A stretch of DNA of 64,000 bases, taken from positions 49,104,001 through 49,168,000 of the forward strand of contig OX597817.1 in the NCBI GenBank assembly GCA_951406725.2, written 5' to 3'. The notes below the pieces were generated by a model. The model saw only the letters and a list, made by a program, of their open reading frames with translations, did no database searches and was not told where the DNA came from. The stretch is from Octopus vulgaris. Lineage: Eukaryota. Positions 4,815 through 48,737 of the stretch are shown here, piece after piece. Every line of letters starts with the position of its first letter. Position 1 is the first letter of the stretch. A program made the translations under genes and the position numbers.

Positions 4815-5592
4815 GGAGTGGCTGTGTGGCTGTGTGGTAAGTAGCTTGCTTACGAACCGCATGGTTCCGGGTTCAGTCCCACTGTGTGGTACCTAGGGCA
4901 ACTGTCTTCTACTATAGCCTCGGGCCGATCGAAGCCTTGTGAGTGGATTTGGTAGACAGAAACTGAAAGAAGTTCATCGTATATATGTATATACTAGCAG
5001 TATCGCCCGGCGTTGCTCGGGTTTGTAAGGGAAATAACTATAAAGCATTTTTAGAGAGTTATAGCCAAAAAATGGAAAAAAATGATGGTAAATTTTTTTT
5101 GAGAGTAAAAAAAGGTGGAGTTGCGTCCCCTAGACAGTTTGCGGTTTGTGTTTCTGATTCTCGACCCCATGTCGAATTTATCGATTTTTTTCAGAACTGG
5201 GGGAACTTTTCAAAATTTTCGCTGCGTTAGTTTTGAATTATGACATTGGGCTATGTGTGTGTTAAGTTTCATCAGAATCGGTTGAAAGCCGTGGTCAGAG
5301 TGAGGGTACGAGAAAACAGACACACAGAAACACGCACAGACAAACTGCCGTTTATATATAGAGAGATATATGTATGTGTGTGTATGTTTGTGTGTCTGTG
5401 TTTGTCCGCGCAACATCGCTTGACAACCGACGCTGGTGTATTTACTTCCCCGTAACTTAGCGGTTCGACAAAAGAGACCGATAGAATAAGTACCAGGCTT
5501 ACAAAGAATAAGTCCTGGGGTCGATTTGCTCGACTAAAAGGCGGTGCTCCAGCATGGCCACAGTCACATGACTGAAACAAGTAAAAGAGTAA
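4815..5592 (+). mobile_element. SINE family A interrupted by a Helitron
   Basis: Head 4815-4985 and tail 5370-5592 flank the Helitron, which sits in the internal (TA)n. Confidence 0.85.
4994..5366 (-). mobile_element. Non-autonomous Helitron
   Basis: Minus strand: 5' TC start, 3' hairpin CCCGAGCAACGCCGGG, then CTAG end between A and T; same 3' end at 45650 and 62610. Confidence 0.75.
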
Positions 5593-10120: not shown

Positions 10121-10230
10121 GATCTTCATTAAAACTTAATGTTAGTCAGGAGTTGTCCTCCTGTGTCGTGTACATCAGCGACTTGCTTATTTGTACATTA
10201 TTTACATTTGTCCTCATCTTCTTTGTTGTT

Positions 10231-10276
10231 AAGACAACGTTTCGGCTAATATACCCTCCAGCCTTCATCAGGTGTC
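10231..10276 (-). ncRNA. Minimal type I hammerhead ribozyme motif (Penelope-like)
   Basis: Minus: gacac-CTGATGA-a-GGCTG...TAGCC-GAAAC-GTT-gtctt; palindromic AACGTT stem III. Confidence 0.7.
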
Positions 10277-10323
10277 ATGGAGAAATTTCGAACCTGGGTT
10301 CTTATTCCTAAGGTATTTTGTGA

Positions 10324-10383
<60 letters not shown>

Positions 10384-10419
10384 CATTATTATTATTAATA
10401 ACCCCTACGCCATATGCCC

Positions 10420-10492
10420 GGGCATATGGCGTAGTGGTTAAGAGCGCGGGCTACTAACCCCAAGATTCCGAGTTCGATTCCAGGCAGTGACT
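10420..10492 (+). ncRNA. tRNA-derived (Ile-AAT-like) Pol III head, not a functional tRNA
   Basis: A box TGGCGTAGTGGTT, B box GAGTTCGATTCC; GGGCTACTAACCCCAAG resembles tRNA-Ile GGTGCTAATAACGCCAAG; no acceptor stem. Confidence 0.65.
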
Positions 10493-10778
10493 TGAATAAT
10501 AATAATAATAATAATGATAATAATAATAATAATAATAATATCGAAAAATACCTCAGGAATGAGAACCCGGGTTCGAAATTTTCCCCAAGACACCTTATGA
10601 AGGCTGGCGGGTATATCAGCCGAAACGTTGTATTAACAACAAACAAGAAGAGGACTAATATACGTCAAATGTAAATAATGTAAATAATGTACATAATTCT
10701 TCATCTCTTAAATATAGAATTGCTTATTTGTGTTCCCATCTACTGGAACGTAATAAAAATAAGTATACAAATCATAAT

Positions 10779-11689: not shown

Positions 11690-11862
11690 TATCGTTTTTG
11701 GATTTGGTTTGCAAGATTCTTTACGTGAGTTCGTGTGTTGAAGCATATTCTGTTGTGTCTGGGGAGAGTCATTTTCTTTTTGTGCCTTATAATGTAACAC
11801 ACTCACCGGTAAGATTTCCACTTTAAAAAAATGATAATATTATAAACATAATAATAATGATG

Positions 11863-11927
<65 letters not shown>

Positions 11928-12753
11928 GGACTAAACGCAAAAGAAATAGACAAAGAAAAATCCCAGCAATGGTTGAAAAGCTCACGACTCAAAGCAGAAA
12001 CAGAGGGATTTTTAATTGCAGCACAAGACCAAAGCCTCCCCACCAGAAATTACCAAAAACATGTAATGAAAAGAAATATTACAAGTAACTGCAGAATATG
12101 TGGAGATGGACAAGAAACAATAAATCATATTATCTCTAGCTGCCCAGTCCTGGCTAAGAAGGAATATATTCACAGACATGACAGAGTTGGAACCTACATA
12201 CATTGGAAGCTATGCCAACATTATGGAATAACAACAGAAAAAAGATGGTATAGGCACACACCAGAAAAGGTCACAGAAAGCGAGAAAGCAACCATACTCT
12301 GGGATATGCCGATACACACAGATAGAGAAATTAAGGCCAACAGACCAGATATAGTTGTCAGAGATCATGAAGAAAAAAAATGCTTTCTAATTGATGTATC
12401 AATACCGGCTGATGACAACGTGTCTCTAAAAGAAATGGAGAAACTCTCAAAATAGAAAGACCTGGAAATAGAGGTAACTAGAATGTGGAATCTGAAAACA
12501 GAAACAATTCCTATCATAGTAGGTGCATTAGGCATGATAAAAAAATATTCAGACAAATACATAACAAAAACACCAGGACTTACAAACACATATAACATAC
12601 AGAAAATTGCACCTCTAGGCACTGCACACATCCTACGCAGAACACTTTCCATACAATAACCATCAGAGCATCACAACAAATCACAGCACATACCCAAGGC
12701 ACACAGAGCTGTGCTCGGTAGTGAAGTGAAAGCACGCTATAAAAATAAAACTA

Positions 12754-19024: not shown

Positions 19025-19026
<2 letters not shown>

Positions 19027-19543
19027 CAATAATAATTCTCTAAAAGAGATATAGACAGTAACTGCTCGATAACATAAGGGACTAAAGCCATCTGAATATG
19101 GCTAGGGACAGGGCAGGGTGGTGGGGGTGTTACTGTTGCATTTAGCCCCAGGCGAACATCGACGTCACCAGAAAGGCTCGACACCGTCACGGTGTCCTTA
19201 TCCTGCAAAGGGAGGTAATTCCCCGATGAAGCGGAAACCACACACGGACCATGGTTTCAAGGTGTATTGCCTATCGTCGGCGTGTGGTAGGCTTCCGCTT
19301 CCTCGACGAATTCTCACTCTGCAGGATATTCATATATAGATTTTCAAGCAAAATACATTTGCTGATTTCGAAAATCTGTTCGAAAGCAATAATAATTCTC
19401 TAAAAGAGATATAGACAGTAACTGCTCGATAACATAAGGGACTAAAGCCATCTGAATATGGCTAGGGACAGGGCAGGGTGGTGGGGGTGTTACTGTTGCA
19501 TTTAGCCCCAGGCGAACATCGACGTCACCAGAAAGGCTCGACA
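19025..19543 (-). mobile_element. Retrozyme-like element 1 (360-nt unit plus 159-bp terminal direct repeat)
   Basis: 19025-19183 repeated exactly at 19385-19543; contains an HHR; embedded in (TA)n. Confidence 0.8.
19241..19286 (-). ncRNA. Type I hammerhead ribozyme (CCGACGA core)
   Basis: Minus: CACACG-CCGACGA-tAGGcaatacaCCTt-GAAAC-catg-GTC^CGTGTG; stem I 6 bp; predicted cut between 19247 and 19246. Confidence 0.8.
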
Positions 19544-19544
19544 T

Positions 19545-20235
<691 letters not shown>

Positions 20236-21292
20236 ATTGATTGATTGATTGATTGATTGATTCTAGTTTCAGCTTATGAGCTGTGGCCATGCTGGGGCAC
20301 CGCCATTTGGTGTTGCTACTTGGTTTTACTTCACGAAAGCTTTTTAGCAACTGCCATTTGGTGCATGAGAGAGTTCGATGCAGCTGCCCTCATCTGCACC
20401 TCTTGCCGTGAAGTTGGTTCATCTGGGACACCTGACAGGAAGAGATCCAGTTTCATCTTAAAGACATCTGCATCCACCCCATGCAGGTCTCTCAGGTTCT
20501 TCGGGAGGATATTGAAGAGCTGTGGGCCTCGGAAGCCCAGGCTATCACAGAATCTTGTTCTACATCTTGATGGCAAGTTTGGAGTCCTAGGCACCACGCA
20601 GTGGCGCCCAGTTCTGGCATTTGCGTAACTCTCGATGCCAAAGTTTAGGACCCGTCCCTCCAGGATCTTCCAGATGTATATTATGGCATATCTTTCCCGC
20701 CTACGCTCCAGGGAATATAGTTTTAATCTCTTGAGTCTTTCCCAGTAGCTTACATTCTGCATAGAGGCTATCTTCTTCGTGTAGCTACGTTGGATCGCCT
20801 GTGATCAACTTGACACTGGATGGTGACCATAACTGAGAGCAGTAGTCAAAATGGCTTAGGACAAGTGTCCTCCAGAGGACCATCATGGTTTCTTGTTCTT
20901 TTGTTCTAAAGGTTCTGAGGATCCATCCGGCCAGTCGTCTACATTTCATTGCCAATTTAGCAACATGTACACGAAAGGTCGCGTCATCACTCATGTAAAT
21001 ACCTAGGTCACGCACTGATTGTGCCTCTGGGATTGCTATTCCTCCGGGTCCAGTGAATTCATTGGGTATTGCATTTAGTTTTGCATGCTGATAGTATAGA
21101 GCTTGAAACTTTTCAGCATTGAACTGCATGCTATTCTTTTCAGCCCACTTGTATATTTTGTCCAGCTCACATTGCAGGTGTTTAGTGTTCTCAGGGTTCT
21201 GTATTGCCTGTGAAACTTTTGTATCATCTGCATAACTTGTGATCGTGGCTCTCTGCGTGGCTGAGGGCATGTCTGAGAGGGCCATTATGAAC
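20236..21292 (-). mobile_element. 5'-truncated CR1/L2-group LINE (RT C-terminal half and 3' end)
   Basis: YADD motif, VRDLGIYM, HFDYCSQLWSP, YSLERRRER; frame break near 20785; (ATCA)n tail. Confidence 0.9.
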
Positions 21293-21295
21293 ATA

Positions 21296-21655: not shown

Positions 21656-23310
21656 ACTTTGATACTTTGATACTTTGATAGGTTTCGGCCATTATTGGCC
21701 CAGGCCATGTCTAACTTAATAGCACCACCTGGTGAAGTCTTTCAAGTCAGAATTTGGGCACTATGGCCCACTCAAGTAGAGAGTTATTGTTTACAGAGAC
21801 ATATCCGGGTGTAGGGGGTTTATCCGGGATTTCTTGAAGGAATCTGTCCAAAGACTTCTTGAACCCTATAGGGTCAGTTTCTGTTTTAATGTGTTTTGGT
21901 GTAATATTAAAGAGAGCGGGGCCAATTGAGGTGAAATAATTGTGCCGTATTGTTGTTATGAGATGAGAGTGCGATTTTTGTTTTGGGCGGATGGCACGGG
22001 GCCCAAGCCTTGGATGTACCTTAAAGGTGATGCCAACATCATTTGGGCAATGCTGATGGAATATTTTCCACATCATGCAGATGATGTAGCGCTCACGACG
22101 ACGTTGGAGAGAATAGAGTTTTAGCTTTTCTAGTCGACCCCAATAGTCGAGGCCTGTCATGCCATCTATCTTTTTTGTGATTGCCCTTTGAGGTGCTTCG
22201 ACTTTTATGATACCTTGTATTGTGTGGGGAGACCACAGTGGACAACAGTATTCAAGGTGGGGTCGGCAAAAGTGGAGAAGAGAAGGATAATGGTGTGGAT
22301 ATCTCTCGACTGAAAAGTTCTGAGAATCCAGGAACACATTCTGCGGGCCATGTCAACTTTGGTGTTTATATGAGTGGCCCAGCTTACGTTGTTGTCCACA
22401 ATTACTCCCAAGTCTCTGATGTTGTTGGACGCCGCGAGAGATTCACCTGAAGGAAGGGAGTATGGGAGTTTCAGGGCATCCTCTTTTCCAAAGTGGATTA
22501 GCTCAAATTTATCCTCGTTCAGCAGCATATTGTTTTTTTCTGCCCATTGGATAACAGCCAGTAGATCTGACTGAAGGCATGTCCGGTCACTCGCCTCATT
22601 TATGACCTTCTGTAGCTTGGAGTCATCTGCAAAGATTTTTATGTTGCTGTGCTTGATGATGTCATTAATGTCATTAATGTAAATGATGAAAAGAAGTGGG
22701 CCCAGCACAGTGCCTTGCGGAACGCCACTACTGACTTTGGCTGGGCTTGATTTTACCCCTTCAACTACAACATGTTGAGATCTGTCTGTCAGGAAACACT
22801 TAATCCATTTCAGTAACTTTCCAGAGACACCAATGTTGGATAGTTTTTTCAATAGGATCTTGTGATCGACCCTGTCGAAGGCCTTACTGAAATCAAGGTA
22901 GATGATATCGGTGTTGGAGCCCTCTCCCAAAGCTCTCAAAATGTCCTCAAAGTGATGCAGGAGCTGCGTTAGGCAGTCCCTTCCATTACGGAACCCATGT
23001 TGGTTGGAGATCAGCCGTCTGTTGCTTTCCAGAAATTGGGTTATTTGAGATCTCACCACCCTCTCAAATACCTTGATGATATGAGAGGTGAGTGAGATCG
23101 GACGGTAATTCACTGCAAGGGACTTGTTTCCCTTTTTGAAAACTGGGACAACAGACTGGGACAGAAGGTTTTTTGGAATATAGCCAGCATCCAGTGAGTT
23201 TCTCCACAGATTAGCAAGGGGAGATGCAAGTTGGTGTCGACACACCTTCAGGACACAAGCAGGGAACCTATCGGGGCCTACTGCTGAATTGTGTTTTATT
23301 TCGTTTAATA
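21656..23310 (-). mobile_element. 5'-truncated CR1/L2-group LINE, reverse transcriptase pseudogene
   Basis: NYRPISLT, QHGFR, YLDFSKAFD, GVPQGTVLGP, FADD; single frameshift near 22265; (ATCAAAGT)n tail. Confidence 0.92.
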
Positions 23311-23373
23311 TATGATATATATATATATAATATATGATATATATATATATTATATATATATATATATATAATC

Positions 23374-37115: not shown

Positions 37116-37537
37116 TATGTTTATACTGATCGTTGTAGCGAGAATGCCTTTGATCATAACTTAATTCCATTATGGCAAATTTGGAGTTAAGTGACAGCAA
37201 AAATAACCACATATTGTGTAAACCAGTTAACCACATATTGCATGTATCTGCAATCATTGTAAACATATGTAGTATTGCATGCGTTATGCATACTATAAAG
37301 AAATCATGAATGGTATGTTTCCAATTAAATTTCATTCAATTTAAGCAACTTTCTAGTTCCCAGTTCTAAGTTTGAGAGATGAGGAATTATGTACATTATT
37401 TACAATTGACGGATATTTGTCCTCTTTTATTTGTTGTTAACACAACGTTTCAGCTGATATGCTCTCCAGCCTTTATCAGGTGTTTTGGGGGAAATTTCGA
37501 ACCTGGGTTCCCACTTCTAAGGTATTTTTCGATGTTG

Positions 37538-37571
<34 letters not shown>

Positions 37572-37850
37572 GGTTACTGTCTCGAATCGAACTCGGAATC
37601 TTGGGGTTAGTAGCCCACGCTCTTAACCACTACGCGATATGCCCACGGGCATATAGCGTAGTGGTTAAGAGCGTGGGCTACTAACCCCAAGATTCCGAGT
37701 TCGATTCCAGCAGCAGTGAACTGAATAATAATAATAAAAATAATAATAAAATTTCCACTTATTTTACCGATGAGTGTGTTAAATAATAAGGTACTAAAAG
37801 AGAATGACTCTCCCCAGACACAACTGTATATATATATATATATGTATATA

Positions 37851-37941
<91 letters not shown>

Positions 37942-38359
37942 CTATGTTTATACTGATCGTTGTAGCGAGAATGCCTTTGATCATAACTTAATTCCATTAT
38001 GGCATATTTGGAGTTAAGTGACAGCAAAAATAACCACATATTGTGTAAACCAGTTAACCACATATTGCATGTATCTGCAATCATTGTAAACATATGTAGT
38101 ATTGCAGGTGTTATGCATACTATAAAGAAATCATGAATGGTATGTTTCCAATTAAATTTCATTCAATTTAAGCAACTTTCTAGTTCCCAGTTCTAAGTTT
38201 GAGAGATGAGGAATTATGTATATTATATACATTAGACGGATATTTGTCCTCATTTGTTTGTTGTTAACACAACGTTTCAGCTCATATGCTCTCCAGCCTT
38301 CATCAGGTGTTTTGGGGTAAATTTCGAACCTGGGTTCCCACTTCTAAGGTATTTTTCGA

Positions 38360-38413
<54 letters not shown>

Positions 38414-38590
38414 GGTTACTGTCTCGAATCGAACTCGGAATCATGGCGTTAGTAGCCCACGCTCTTAACCACTACGCGATATGCCCACGGGCATATAGCG
38501 TAGTGGTTAAGAGCGTGGGCTACTAACCCCAAGATTCCGAGTTCGATTCCAGCAGCAGTGAACTGAATAATAATAATAAAAATAATAATA
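36915..38590. repeat. Local tandem duplication, unit ~833 bp
   Basis: 36915-37747 repeated at 37748-~38590, including unique spacer sequence. Confidence 0.9.
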
Positions 38591-38611
38591 ATGATAATGA
38601 TAATAATAATA

Positions 38612-38649
<38 letters not shown>

Positions 38650-38800
38650 AACTTCGAAAAATACCTCAGGAATGAGTACCTAGGTTCGAAATTTCTCCAA
38701 GACACCAGATGAAGGCTGGAGAGTATATCAACCGAAACGTTGTGTTAACAAGAAACAAGATGAGGACAAATATCCGTCGAATGTAAATAATGTAAATAAT
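37360..38800. mobile_element. Palindromic tRNA-head/(TAA)n/hammerhead element, copies B (37360-37745, partial) and C (38190-38800)
   Basis: Head-to-head tRNA-like units 37573-37722 and 38414-38563; HHR motifs at ~37439-37485 (-), ~38266-38311 (-, intact core) and ~38701-38746 (+). Confidence 0.85.
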
Positions 38801-39132
38801 GTTTCTACTTTCCATTAACTTGAAAATAAAGAGATAATAAGTAGTTCGAATAAATCATTCTTTGTTTTCTCAAGGCCCTTTTTTTACGTTTTGTATGTAG
38901 TCAGTCGGTTTCTTTTGTAGAACCACTAGGTCACAGAGAGGTAAGCAAACTAACACCGGTTGTCCAGTCATGGTGGACAAACGAAAACGCAAATGCACAC
39001 ATACATACATACACACACACACGCACACACACACACATATATATATACATATATATGTGTATATATGTGCATATACATACATATACATATATAAATGTAT
39101 ATATATATATACATATATACATGCACCCTCTC

Positions 39133-44149: not shown

Positions 44150-44183
<34 letters not shown>

Positions 44184-44191
<8 letters not shown>

Positions 44192-44613
44192 GTTGTATAC
44201 TGTCAATCTAACAAGAACGTGACAGTAGGGGCTACACCACCGCTGTATAGCCCTAGGAAGCATCGAACGCCTCCTGATGGCTTTGACACATTTTTCCCTG
44301 TGTCCTTATATACATTTACGAAGGGGAGACAAACACCCCCGGCCGCCGAAGCTGCATCTAGGGACACGTGTTTCAGGATCGTTGTCTTTCATCGGCCTAG
44401 AGTAGCAGACACCGGTCAGCTGGTGATATTTGTCTCGACTTCGTAATTGTATATATCTATATTCAGTGAAGTCTATTCACTGATTAACAAAAGAAGAAAT
44501 ATTGAATTTCTAAATCTCTCGTAGAGACATGTACGGTGGTGGGACGATAGAATGGTTGTATACTGTCAATCTAACAAGAACGTGACAGTAGGGGGTACAC
44601 CACCGCTGTATAG
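44184..44613 (-). mobile_element. Retrozyme-like element 2 (363-nt unit plus 67-bp terminal direct repeat)
   Basis: 44184-44250 repeated at 44547-44613; contains an HHR; same stem architecture as element 1; abuts (TA)n. Confidence 0.8.
44357..44401 (-). ncRNA. Type I hammerhead ribozyme (CCGATGA core)
   Basis: Minus: TCTAGG-CCGATGA-aagacaacgatcct-GAAAC-acgt-GTC^CCTAGA; stem II partly mismatched; predicted cut between 44363 and 44362. Confidence 0.75.
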
Positions 44614-45649
44614 TCTATTGCGGTAAAAATACATTCTGTGTCGTATGAATATGTCCCTCGTTTAAGAAACAGATTGGGTTTATTTACATTTGTGAAGAAA
44701 AAAGATACCCTTCCCCCCACCCCTAACCCTAAAAAAATTGAAATGCAATAAATCGATACTAGGGTCATAATTATGGGTGACAATTTCATATGACACCGCT
44801 AGAAAAAACTGCCGTTCAGACCGAAAAGATCCCTTACATGTATGTATAACTGGAACATTCGTCGTTATGTGTTAGTGTTCCTATCTCACAATTCATAGAA
44901 ATTATTTGTTATCGGAACAGATAAAAGGAAACATGGATAACCCCCCTTTTTTTTCAACAAGATATTATCGAGAATCATTACGATTTCAGCACTGGAAGTG
45001 CTTAGTATAAACCTGGAGAAAAGATATGCTTAATTTCAGCTACGATCGGATGGTATTTTAAAATGAACGTGTGTATTCAACTTTCACGTTTGAATTGTTA
45101 ATAGATTCATAAAGAAATTGTTTTTCATCTTCCGTTTGTCACCACTGGTAGTCTAATAGAAGTGAAAGTAACTAATAATTTGCAACGTATGTCCCCATAG
45201 TATTTGATTAATTGAATTTCGTTCAAATATTTTAAATGCCACAGTGGTTTTTTTTTTCTTTTTGCCGAATCGCTTTGTTACGAAAATGTAAATAAACCAA
45301 GCGTTGGCAAATGTGTATGATAAACGCAGAACAAAGAAACACGTGCAGACACAAACGCACGCGCACGCACGAACTCACGCGCACACACACACACACACAT
45401 ACACACAAGGACATATATATATACATACACATACAAGAACACACACACACATAAACTCGAACACACACACCTATCCGACAGACTTTGATACAGTGTCTGT
45501 CTACCAAATTTAATCACGAGGCATTGATCGGCCTAGTACTGTAATAGAAAACAATCGTCCAAGATGCCACGTCGTGGGATCGAACTTGAAACAACGTGAT
45601 AGCGAAGCGAGCTTCTTATATAGCAGAATTAACATTTTCTTATACGTTA

Positions 45650-46049
45650 CTAGCAGTATCGCCCGGCGTTGCTCGGGTTTGTAAGGGAAATAACTATATA
45701 AGCATTTTTAGAGATGTAAATAATAATAGCCATCTCAATATGGCTAACCATAAAGGGGGTGTGTGTTACTGTAGCTTTTTACGTTCTGAGATTTAATAAT
45801 AAATTTTTAGAGAGTTACTTCCCTTATATATGCCAAAAATGCATTAAAAATGGGAAAAATTTATGGTAATTTTTTTTTTTAATCGTAGACTCATCGTAGA
45901 CGCGCGCTAATACCCAGAAGGGCTCGATATGAATCACGACAATAAGATACCCGGTTTTGGTTAAACTGCACCGCAAAATGTGGGAGTAGTTAGGAATCTA
46001 AATCGTAGGAGACAGACAGCACACAACCTCTCTTTTATATATATATAGA
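45650..46049 (-). mobile_element. Non-autonomous Helitron
   Basis: Same 3' hairpin and CTAG end as 4994-5366; 5' TC. Confidence 0.75.
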
Positions 46050-46992: not shown

Positions 46993-48737
46993 CCTTAAAT
47001 CCTTAAAAATGTTTTAGCCCGAAGGCCGCGGCCATGCTGGGGCACCACCGCTGAATGAGCCACACTAGTTTGTGAATCCACCTCTGATACGTGGCACTTG
47101 ATCAACAAGGGAGTTCGATGCTGCTGCCCGCATCCGTGTCTCCTGTCGTGAGGTAGGTTCATCTGGGACTCCCAACAAGAAGAGATCCAGTTTAGTTTTA
47201 AAGAAACCCACATCCACACCATGTAAGTCTCTCAGGCATTTAGGGAGGATGTTGAAAAGCTGTGGTCCTCTGAAACCCAAGCTGTTGCAGTATCTGGACC
47301 TGTATTTTGATGGTGATGTTGGAATCCTTGGCACCAGCAGCGGCGCCCCGTTCTGCGGTTGGAGTAACTTTGAATGCCAAAGTTTGGGACAAGACCCTCC
47401 AGGATTTTCCAGATGTATATTACTGCATATCTCTCCCGCCTCCGCTCCAGGGAGAAGAGGTTTAATACCTTCAGTCTTTCCCAGTAGCTGACATTTTGCA
47501 TTGAGACGATTTTCTTTGTGTAGCTTCTCTGAGTTGCTTCGAGTTCTGCTGTTTGTTTTATATTGTGTGGTGACCAAAGTTGGGAGCAGTAGTCCAAGCG
47601 GCTGAGGACAAATGTTTTCCATAGGACCATCAGTGTCTCCTTCTCTCTTGTTCTGAAAGTTCGGAGAATCCATCCAGCTAGCCGTCTGCATTTTATCACC
47701 AGATTAGCAATATGCATTTGGAAAGATGCATCATTGCTCATGTCAATGCCCAGGTCACGCACTGATTTTGACTCAGGGATTGCAATTCTTCCTGGGCCAG
47801 TGTATCCAGTCTTCACGTCATTTACCTTTGTGTGCCAGTAGCGCAGGGCCTGGAACTTACCTGCATTAAACTGCATGTTGTTGTCCTCAGCCCACCTGTA
47901 TATTGTGTCCAGCTCATGTTGCAGATGCGCAATATTTTCAGGGTTCTGTATTGCGTGGGAGACCTTTGTGTCATCTGCATAGCTAGCAAGGGTGGTCATC
48001 GTAGCAACTGAAGGCATGTCTGAAAGGGCCACTATGAACATCAGTGGCCCCAAGACAGTGCCCTGTGGGACACCGCTTGTTATTTGCGTTTCCCTGGAGG
48101 TGGCTCCATTGCTCACAACTGCCTGTTTTCTGTCTTTTAGGAAGTTGTGCAGCCACTCTCCAAGTTTCCCGCCTATGCCGAGACCACGCAGTTTGTGACA
48201 GATCATACCATGGTCGACTTTATCAAAGGCTTTTGCAAAGTCAAGATATATTACATCCACATTTGAGCCATTTAGTAGCTGTTTCAACACCCAGTCATAG
48301 TGTTGCAGGAGCTGTGTTAGGCAGCCTCTACCTGGTCGAAATCCATGCTGGGTGTCAGACAGTAAGTCATTTTCTTCAAGGAACATGATTAGTTTCTTAC
48401 GGACTATTCGTTCCATGACTTTGCTGATGTGTGAGGTCAGAGAGATAGGCCTATAATTTTTAGCATCTGCTCTGCTACCTCCCTTATGGATAGGGCATAT
48501 TACCCCCTCTTTCAGTTTGACTGGGAGCTTACCACTTGCAAGAAAGCTCTGAAAAAGAAGCTGTAGCGGTTTTGCAAGGGCTCGTTTGCACGATTTGAGA
48601 AGGATCGCTGGGAATCCATCAGGTCCAGCAGCTGAGTTTGTGTCAATCTCATCAATGGCTAGTGTGATATCATCTTCTTCGATGTTGATGTACTCAATTT
48701 TTGTCTCTTTGGCCGCTGGTAAAGTGGCAAAGAATTC
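46988..48737 (-). mobile_element. 5'-truncated CR1/L2-group LINE, RT pseudogene (relative of 20236-21292)
   Basis: QHGFR, YLDFAKAFD, GVPQGTVLGP, YADD; frameshift near 47340; (AAGGATTT)n tail; (TA)n on both sides. Confidence 0.92.

What the first reader, a model, noticed from the sequence alone, without database searches (positions are those of the whole stretch)
44184..44613. Second, sequence-divergent retrozyme-like family sharing the whole fold with element 1
Seen: 363-bp period, 67-bp terminal repeat and an HHR with the same unusual CCGANGA core and a palindromic stem III (ACACGTGT versus ACCATGGT). Primary identity to element 1 is low, but the order of stems is the same, with compensatory changes: TCTCT-nnn-AGAGA hairpin; closing stem ACAGTAAC/GTTACTGT versus CGGTGGTG/CACCACCG around an inner hairpin; TAGCCC-YAGG..CATCGA..GGCT hairpin; GACAC-loop-GTGTC-CTTAT; then the long HHR-bearing rod. 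Inference: an old lineage of structured, probably circular, self-cleaving RNAs whose non-ribozyme domains are under structural selection, possibly for RT recognition or Pol III transcription. I do not know of a description of these domains.
Basis: partly seen in the sequence, partly recalled or inferred. Interest (0 to 1): 0.92.

Follow-up and report, generated by a model that had tools for sequence, protein, structure and literature searches.

The report
Structured retrozyme family with Penelope-type insertions
This is one copy of a large family of small self-cutting RNA parasites in an animal genome whose non-catalytic parts keep a conserved fold and whose insertions carry the marks of Penelope-type retrotransposon enzymes, pointing to how such RNAs get copied back into DNA.

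Summary
Confirmed. 44184-44613 is 1.18 copies of a 363-nt unit with a type I hammerhead (core CCGAUGA, a U4C variant) on the minus strand. It and element 1 (19025-19543) belong to about a dozen related dispersed families in G000 (2312 core-motif matches against 57 for the reversed control). On sequence-only alignments, 28 of 36 and 19 of 19 predicted pairs show two-sided changes. A covariance model built without either family aligns both, and structure adds 25-30 bits. Covariation is strong in the closing stem, H2, H5 and the rod, weak in H1 and H4. Copies end in (TA)n at two fixed, homologous sites 44-53 nt apart, often as inverted, 5'-truncated pairs: the Penelope-like-element (PLE) tail signature. 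A young, intact PLE with the same end pattern exists here, but its repeats are not homologous to the unit. Best reading: a non-LTR retrozyme copied from circular RNA by a PLE enzyme, with the conserved domain as a candidate recognition signal. Pol III is not supported. Cleavage, circularity and expression were not shown. The 67-bp repeat is overrun, not an LTR, and this copy has a damaged stem II.

The parts
44184..44613 (-). Whole insertion of family 2 (B): one 363-nt unit plus 67 nt overrun; single arm, RNA 3' end at 44184, truncated 5' end at 44613
44150..44186 (.). (TA)n target tract joined to the proximal reverse-transcription start
44358..44400 (-). Type I hammerhead: stem I 44396-44400 with 44358-44362, core CCGAUGA 44389-44395, stem II 44375-44388 (private mismatch at 44387), self-complementary stem III 44364-44371, predicted cut between 44363 and 44362
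44308..44454 (-). Long rod carrying the hammerhead at its tip; 6 of 6 pairs of the extension next to stem I covary
44285..44304 (-). H1 hairpin (GACAC..GTGTC); sequence-conserved, little covariation (1 event on the tree in A2, 3 in A4)
44249..44282 (-). H2 two-part hairpin; upper stem covaries (8 events), lower stem 2 events
44534..44605 (-). H3 closing stem (44598-44605 with 44534-44541; 7 of 7 pairs covary) around the inner hairpin 44561-44590 and the proximal start site at 44547; second copy of these parts at 44198-44242
44515..44527 (-). H4 hairpin (CUC-N5-GAG core) inside the tail; conserved in sequence, almost no covariation
44494..44546 (-). 53-nt tail between the two reverse-transcription start sites (distal site at 44494, proximal at 44547/44184)
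44463..44483 (-).
19025..19543 (-). Element 1 (family A): 360-nt unit plus 159 nt, hammerhead 19241-19286, ends at the distal start site in (TA)n
45715..45779 (-). Fragment of the H3 region of a related family inside another repeat

Best explanation
A copy of a non-autonomous, non-LTR retrozyme that is mobilised by a Penelope-like element (PLE). Steps: (1) a tandem genomic copy is transcribed on the hammerhead strand, promoter unknown (inferred). (2) Two hammerheads pair through their self-complementary stem III and cut out a unit-length RNA, which a host ligase closes into a circle (inferred from the conserved palindrome and from work on other retrozymes). (3) The circle folds into a rod plus five hairpin domains (fold shown by covariation, not by probing). 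(4) A PLE RT-GIY-YIG protein binds it, most likely at H3-H4 (inferred, about 0.5), nicks AT-rich DNA and starts cDNA internally at two sites 44-53 nt apart (sites shown from copy ends). (5) The RT runs round the circle and drops off at random, giving 5'-truncated concatemers; priming from both target strands gives the inverted two-armed insertions (anatomy shown, chemistry inferred). The likeliest current driver is the intact 781-aa RT-EN PLE of G000 (inferred). The window copy is one such product, with a since-damaged stem II.
For: Dispersed family: 2300 first-look candidates, 40 scored, the listed full-length matches 96-98% identical; 1639 matches to a domain motif and 310 to one hammerhead variant, controls 0. 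RNA 3' ends fall at two sites, counted from the cut: family B 42 of 48 (176-180, 231-237), A 32 of 34 (170-178, 218-222), C 14 of 19, D/E 27 of 34, at the modal sites mostly followed by (TA)n; 5' ends are scattered. 18 of 29 distinct B loci are inverted pairs, 13 of them with one arm at each site. 13-nt target duplications in 3 of 51 loci. PMC8557442 describes partial tandems, an inverted 5'-truncated copy, a 30-40-bp tail and (TA)n bias for PLEs; PMC11167929 shows two internal RT starts make the tail. G000 holds a two-ORF PLE with RVT_1 and GIY-YIG matches; 14 intact ORF copies fetched are 96.6-99.9% identical to one of them, and 24 of 26 terminal ends lie at two sites 38 nt apart before (TA)n. 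7 of 8 family-A arrays with two or more whole units are uniform, 6 with a locus-specific haplotype, in both orientations where both were present. Loop III takes seven different palindromes (ACGT, CATG, TCGA, TGCA, CTAG, CCGG, CGCG) and one family swaps C3-G8 for U3-A8 (378 matches). Compensatory events on the tree: 32 and 19 against null means of 1.5 and 1.3.
Against: No homology between the unit and the repeats of the PLEs fetched: hits in 50 PLE loci were separate neighbouring insertions where inspected (L200, L205, L210), and no chimaera was seen. The only shared feature is a short CUC..GAG hairpin in the tail (background 0.5%, noticed post hoc). The tails are longer than the PLE's (44-53 against 38 nt). 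One array (C14) is of mixed haplotype, and within-locus variants are more often private than shared (B 142 against 62, A 57 against 4). U4C is reported to lower activity considerably in vitro (PMC3088659), and a PLE's own hammerhead was dispensable for insertion in vitro. Several older copies have non-palindromic loop III. No expression, cleavage or circle was shown.
Confidence: 0.72

Rival explanations
1. Same element and same PLE enzyme, but the template is an uncut linear multimer transcribed from a tandem array; the U4C hammerhead is slow and circles play little part.
For: U4C lowers activity; uncut RNA was the dominant substrate for a lizard PLE in vitro; the C14 array is of mixed haplotype; all mapped full-length copies run across the cut site (biased, since they were chosen as full-length matches).
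Against: 7 of 8 arrays are uniform, 6 with their own haplotype; family B copies are mostly under two units, so long source arrays are rare among those seen; palindromic loop III and the C3-G8/U3-A8 swap argue that cleavage is selected.
Confidence: 0.15
2. The conserved non-ribozyme domains are selected for RNA stability, ligation, germline localisation or promoter activity, not for RT recognition; the RT starts merely where single-stranded UAU can pair with the (TA)n target. (Rival for step 4 only.)
For: Both start sites end in AU-rich letters that can pair with (TA)n; H1, H2 and H5 lie away from the start sites; the domain has no counterpart in the PLE repeats.
Against: The sites keep their place relative to H3 and H4 across families whose representatives are 59-78% identical, although other AU-rich stretches exist in the unit; the lizard PLE also starts at a site without target homology.
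Confidence: 0.35
3. A satellite-like repeat derived from a PLE terminal repeat and amplified at the DNA level (unequal crossover), as proposed for vertebrate retrozymes.
For: bioRxiv 10.64898/2026.07.22.740005 proposes local amplification of pLTR-derived units; uniform arrays are also expected from local amplification.
Against: Copies are dispersed over many chromosomes, end at two fixed sites, are 5'-truncated and inverted; covarying RNA structure needs selection at the RNA level; no pLTR homology found.
Confidence: 0.05
4. Mobilised by a LINE-type RT (CR1/L2-like or RTE-like ORFs occur in the window) that also targets microsatellites.
For: Such RT fragments are present; 5' inversions also occur in LINE insertions (recalled).
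Against: Two internal start sites with a tail are described as unique to PLEs; no poly(A) or simple-repeat 3' tail of the element's own was seen; the PLE's ends show the same two-site pattern.
Confidence: 0.06

Closest known systems
Animal non-LTR retrozymes (coral, mussel, axolotl; PMC7229834, parts 2-4 of 6 read)
   Same: Units of 150-450 nt, under 50% G+C, one type I hammerhead per unit, short self-complementary helix III, highly paired predicted circle, no ORF, tandem copies; a U-U mismatch at the base of stem II as in axolotl HHR_Amex2 occurs in element 1.
   Different: U4C core in the young families and U3-A8 in one; five non-ribozyme domains conserved across about a dozen families; mapped RT start sites and inverted insertions. 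The review PMC7761336 (passages read) says metazoan repeats show no conserved motif pointing to their partner. Circles and cleavage were shown there, not here.
Penelope-like elements, EN+ with Cys linker (Neptune-like; clade label from recall of the motif described in PMC8557442, not from a tree)
   Same: Partial tandems, inverted 5'-truncated copy, tail between two ends, (TA)n target, type I hammerhead upstream of the start sites.
   Different: No ORF; unit 352-369 nt; hammerhead cut 173-232 nt upstream of the start sites against 68 and 106 nt in the PLE; no detectable sequence or domain homology with the pLTRs fetched.
Xenopus retrozymes as non-autonomous PLE derivatives (bioRxiv 10.64898/2026.07.22.740005, parts 1-3 of 5 read, supplements closed)
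   Same: Conclusion that PLEs mobilise retrozymes.
   Different: That case rests on co-occurrence and pLTR similarity in vertebrates; here pLTR similarity was not found and the link comes from insertion anatomy.

Membership tests
non-LTR retrozyme | Tandem units of about 150-450 bp, G+C under 50% | tested here: met
   Units 352-369 nt; G+C 44% and 46% from base counts; dimers and longer arrays
non-LTR retrozyme | A type I hammerhead motif in each unit | tested here: met
   Stems I-III covary; core is a U4C variant; Rfam models did not score it; the window copy has a broken stem II pair
non-LTR retrozyme | Self-cleavage of the RNA | not testable with these tools
   Needs in vitro transcription
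non-LTR retrozyme | Accumulates as circular RNA | not testable with these tools
   Only assembled contigs of runs guessed to be RNA were available; uniform arrays are indirect support
non-LTR retrozyme | Highly self-paired predicted circle | tested here: met
   z -9.8 and -5.7, about 65% paired
non-LTR retrozyme | No coding capacity and no LTRs; target duplications longer than 4 bp when present | tested here: met
   No ORF of 100 aa confined to the unit; terminal repeat length varies; 13-nt duplications in 3 of 51 loci. PBS and PPT were not searched for.
PLE-type insertion | Partial tandem plus inverted 5'-truncated copy | tested here: met
   18 of 29 B loci inverted; also family A
PLE-type insertion | Two RT start sites separated by a tail of about 30-40 bp | tested here: met
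   Two sites in all four family groups with enough ends; 44-53 nt, somewhat longer than described
PLE-type insertion | An intact autonomous PLE in the same genome | tested here: met
   781-aa RT plus GIY-YIG ORF, 14 intact copies fetched
Deletion derivative of a PLE pLTR | Sequence similarity to the pLTR of an autonomous PLE | tested here: not met
   No pLTR hit in 50 PLE loci, which are dominated by one PLE family; other PLE families were thinly sampled
Pol III SINE | Conserved internal A and B boxes or a tRNA/5S/7SL head | tested here: not met
   B-box-like match in 2 of 28 stretches, no A box on the RNA strand; no tRNA call; no Rfam match

The most novel reading that the evidence does not exclude
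The H2-H3-H4 domain is a dedicated RNA signal that recruits a PLE reverse transcriptase and fixes its two start sites on a circular template. It would be the first defined cis-element for mobilisation of animal retrozymes, not borrowed from the present PLE's terminal repeat but kept by RNA-level selection through a radiation of a dozen or more families.
Probability: 0.4. Interest if true: 0.78.

Novelty: new variant of a known kind. Interest (0 to 1): 0.58.

Why it matters
Which enzyme mobilises animal retrozymes, and by what signal, has been open: the 2020 review says the repeats show no conserved motif pointing to a partner, and the 2026 preprint argues from co-occurrence and similarity. Here the insertions themselves carry the two-start-site tail of PLEs, a young intact PLE is at hand, and natural variation has already mapped which helices matter. 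That gives a ready template-enzyme pair for the published in vitro PLE assay, a natural U4C hammerhead in thousands of copies to test, and a compact structured RNA that might direct PLE-based insertion. I found no description of these families or domains in four searches pairing retrozyme or hammerhead terms with octopus, cephalopod or covariation; a 2026 octopus repeat annotation has no occurrence of 'ribozyme' or 'retrozyme' in its main text. Subscription papers, repeat databases and the supplement of PMC7229834 (unreadable) were not seen and may list them.

Tried and rejected
ADAR footprint: A>G against T>C on the RNA strand was 12:8, 22:19 and 14:8 in families A, B, C (p 0.27, 0.76, 0.14); not supported. 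Expression: no holder on record as RNA; contigs of three runs guessed to be RNA cover the unit with a profile like that of the large unlabelled run X17, so they say nothing on expression, strand or circles. The deeper cover of H1-H4 than of the rod suggested a rod-less family; four loci fetched showed a B subfamily with a 5-nt loop III instead, and 5' truncation and stricter matching in the rod may explain the rest (not resolved). Pol III boxes: not conserved. A second ribozyme on the + strand: a CCGATGA at 19223 lacks room for stem II and is not shared. Chimaeras of PLE and retrozyme: none at L200, L205, L210. Relatives outside G000: 0 matches in metagenome contigs; 4 chance motif matches in viral contigs, none scored by the model. 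Rfam: nothing. Earlier scan notes: none by sequence or genome. The first alignment A1 had three rows cut short by mistake and was replaced by A2. No R-scape was available; a parsimony-event test was used instead. The excess of G-U over A-C cells (33:13 in A2) favours the hammerhead strand but is biased by folding that strand.

Full report
Observation. The stretch 44184-44613 is a 363-nt unit plus a 67-nt overrun. It starts in a (TA)n tract and ends abruptly inside an unrelated high-copy repeat. The hammerhead is on the minus strand, which also folds better in both elements. The window copy differs from its family at 44387, breaking one pair of stem II.

A radiation of families. Family B gave 2300 first-look candidates and family A 1057, 40 scored each; listed full-length B matches are 96-98% identical, most A matches 99-100%. 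A core pattern with CCGANGA matched 2312 times against 57 for the reversed control, and a related CTGANGA pattern 395 against 1. Loci fetched from these lists gave further families; 95 distinct near-complete copies fell into 16 clusters at 88%, of which two are artefacts of inverted junctions and several are decayed single copies, so about a dozen families is a fair count. They bridge A and B. A and B align at 54% against 46% for shuffles.

The fold. In A2 (15 rows, hammerhead to tail) 28 of 36 pairs have a two-sided change, 92% of cells pair, 0 of 500 shuffles reach the score, and slid controls give 0.07-0.14 against 0.50. In A3 (13 rows, H5 and rod) 19 of 19 do. Counting events on a tree gave 32 and 19 against null means of 1.5 and 1.3 (maxima 10 and 6); the pairs were chosen on the same alignments, so this is not a formal significance test. 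Support is uneven: closing stem H3 8 events, upper H2 8, rod extension 9, H5 4, but H1 1 and H4 1, which are conserved in sequence. A model of the non-ribozyme domain built from 13 rows without A or B ranks the four pieces of the two elements first in the window, and scores whole B domains at 52-62 bits against 27-32 for the sequence-only model, and A at 76 against 51. The interior of H3 differs in B. The ribozyme itself varies in step: loop III takes seven palindromes, and a 362-nt family uses the U3-A8 core, a swap also reported for PLE hammerheads (PMC4209133, part 1 of 4 read).

How copies were made. Mapped on the RNA strand from the cut site, 3' ends cluster at two homologous places: 42 of 48 in B, 32 of 34 in A, 14 of 19 in C, 27 of 34 in D/E, usually joined to (TA)n at the modal sites, while 5' ends scatter with no pile at the cut (loci were selected by full-length or hammerhead matches, so the 5' sample is biased). 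The proximal site lies inside H3, the distal one just past H4. 18 of 29 B loci are inverted pairs, 13 with one arm ending at each site; family A looks the same. This is the arrangement described for PLEs (PMC8557442, passages), and the tail was shown to be the stretch between two internal RT starts (PMC11167929, parts 1-2 of 4). G000 has a young two-ORF PLE (RVT_1 just under and GIY-YIG over the Pfam cut-off) whose own ends lie at two sites 38 nt apart before (TA)n in 24 of 26 terminal ends (some loci were fetched twice) and whose repeat holds a U3-A8 hammerhead-like motif. Seven of eight A arrays are uniform, six with their own haplotype, as expected if one circle is copied round and round; one is mixed. 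A stricter count over all doubly covered positions gave more private than shared variants (B 142 to 62, with 8% expected across loci; A 57 to 4), which includes later mutation and junction noise.

What is not shown. The unit has no detectable homology with the PLE repeats fetched, so the partner is inferred from anatomy and age, plus one short shared hairpin. Pol III signals are not conserved; the promoter is unknown. Expression, cleavage and circularity could not be tested. U4C is reported to slow the ribozyme (PMC3088659, passage).

Comparison. It works like, and by every feature testable here belongs to, the animal non-LTR retrozymes (PMC7229834), already proposed to depend on PLEs. What I did not find in print is a cephalopod family, a covarying multi-domain structure outside the ribozyme, or PLE tail-type start sites mapped on a retrozyme. 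Verdict: real, a new variant of a known kind, interest 0.58.

Noticed in passing
window 10192-10722, 37361-37749, 38188-38802: A third, unrelated repeat: tRNA-like head with A- and B-box-like motifs, an (AAT)n tract and a canonical CUGAUGA hammerhead-like motif, arranged as head-to-head inverted pairs. It may be a Pol III SINE with a ribozyme that also uses a PLE. ARAGORN calls no tRNA and model R1 does not hit it.
   Followed up: partly
L194:1189-6490 and L191-L204: Young intact two-ORF PLE (479-aa frame without a meaningful Pfam match, 781-aa RT-GIY-YIG frame), 500-780-bp terminal repeats with internal tandem repeats, U3-A8 hammerhead-like motif.
   Followed up: partly
L205:6006-6050, L164, L176: Other PLE families carry different hammerhead-like motifs in their 3' regions; one copy (L205) has a CCGAAGA core like the retrozymes, its relative L164 has CTGAAGA.
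   Followed up: no
L215:150-930: A tandem of a 249-nt deleted unit that lacks H3, H4 and the tail, ending in a complete domain; it suggests RT jumps or a deleted template copied in cis with an intact end.
   Followed up: no
L046/L036 (G000:C14:72.7 Mb): Family A array with switching haplotypes, mostly A>G changes, unlike the other seven arrays.
   Followed up: partly
window 45648-45800 and 4992-5057: A piece of the H3 region of a related family sits inside another repeat that also occurs at 4992-5057 without that piece.
   Followed up: no
window 22205-23371 (-), 47232-48737 (-), 20052-21294, 11838-12455 (+): LINE-type reverse-transcriptase frames (CR1/L2-like and RTE-like by recall, not searched).
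   Followed up: no
L177:2690 (-), L165:3009 (-), L203:696: Further small hammerhead-like motifs with CCGA cores in short elements flanked by (TA)n, unrelated to this family.
   Followed up: no
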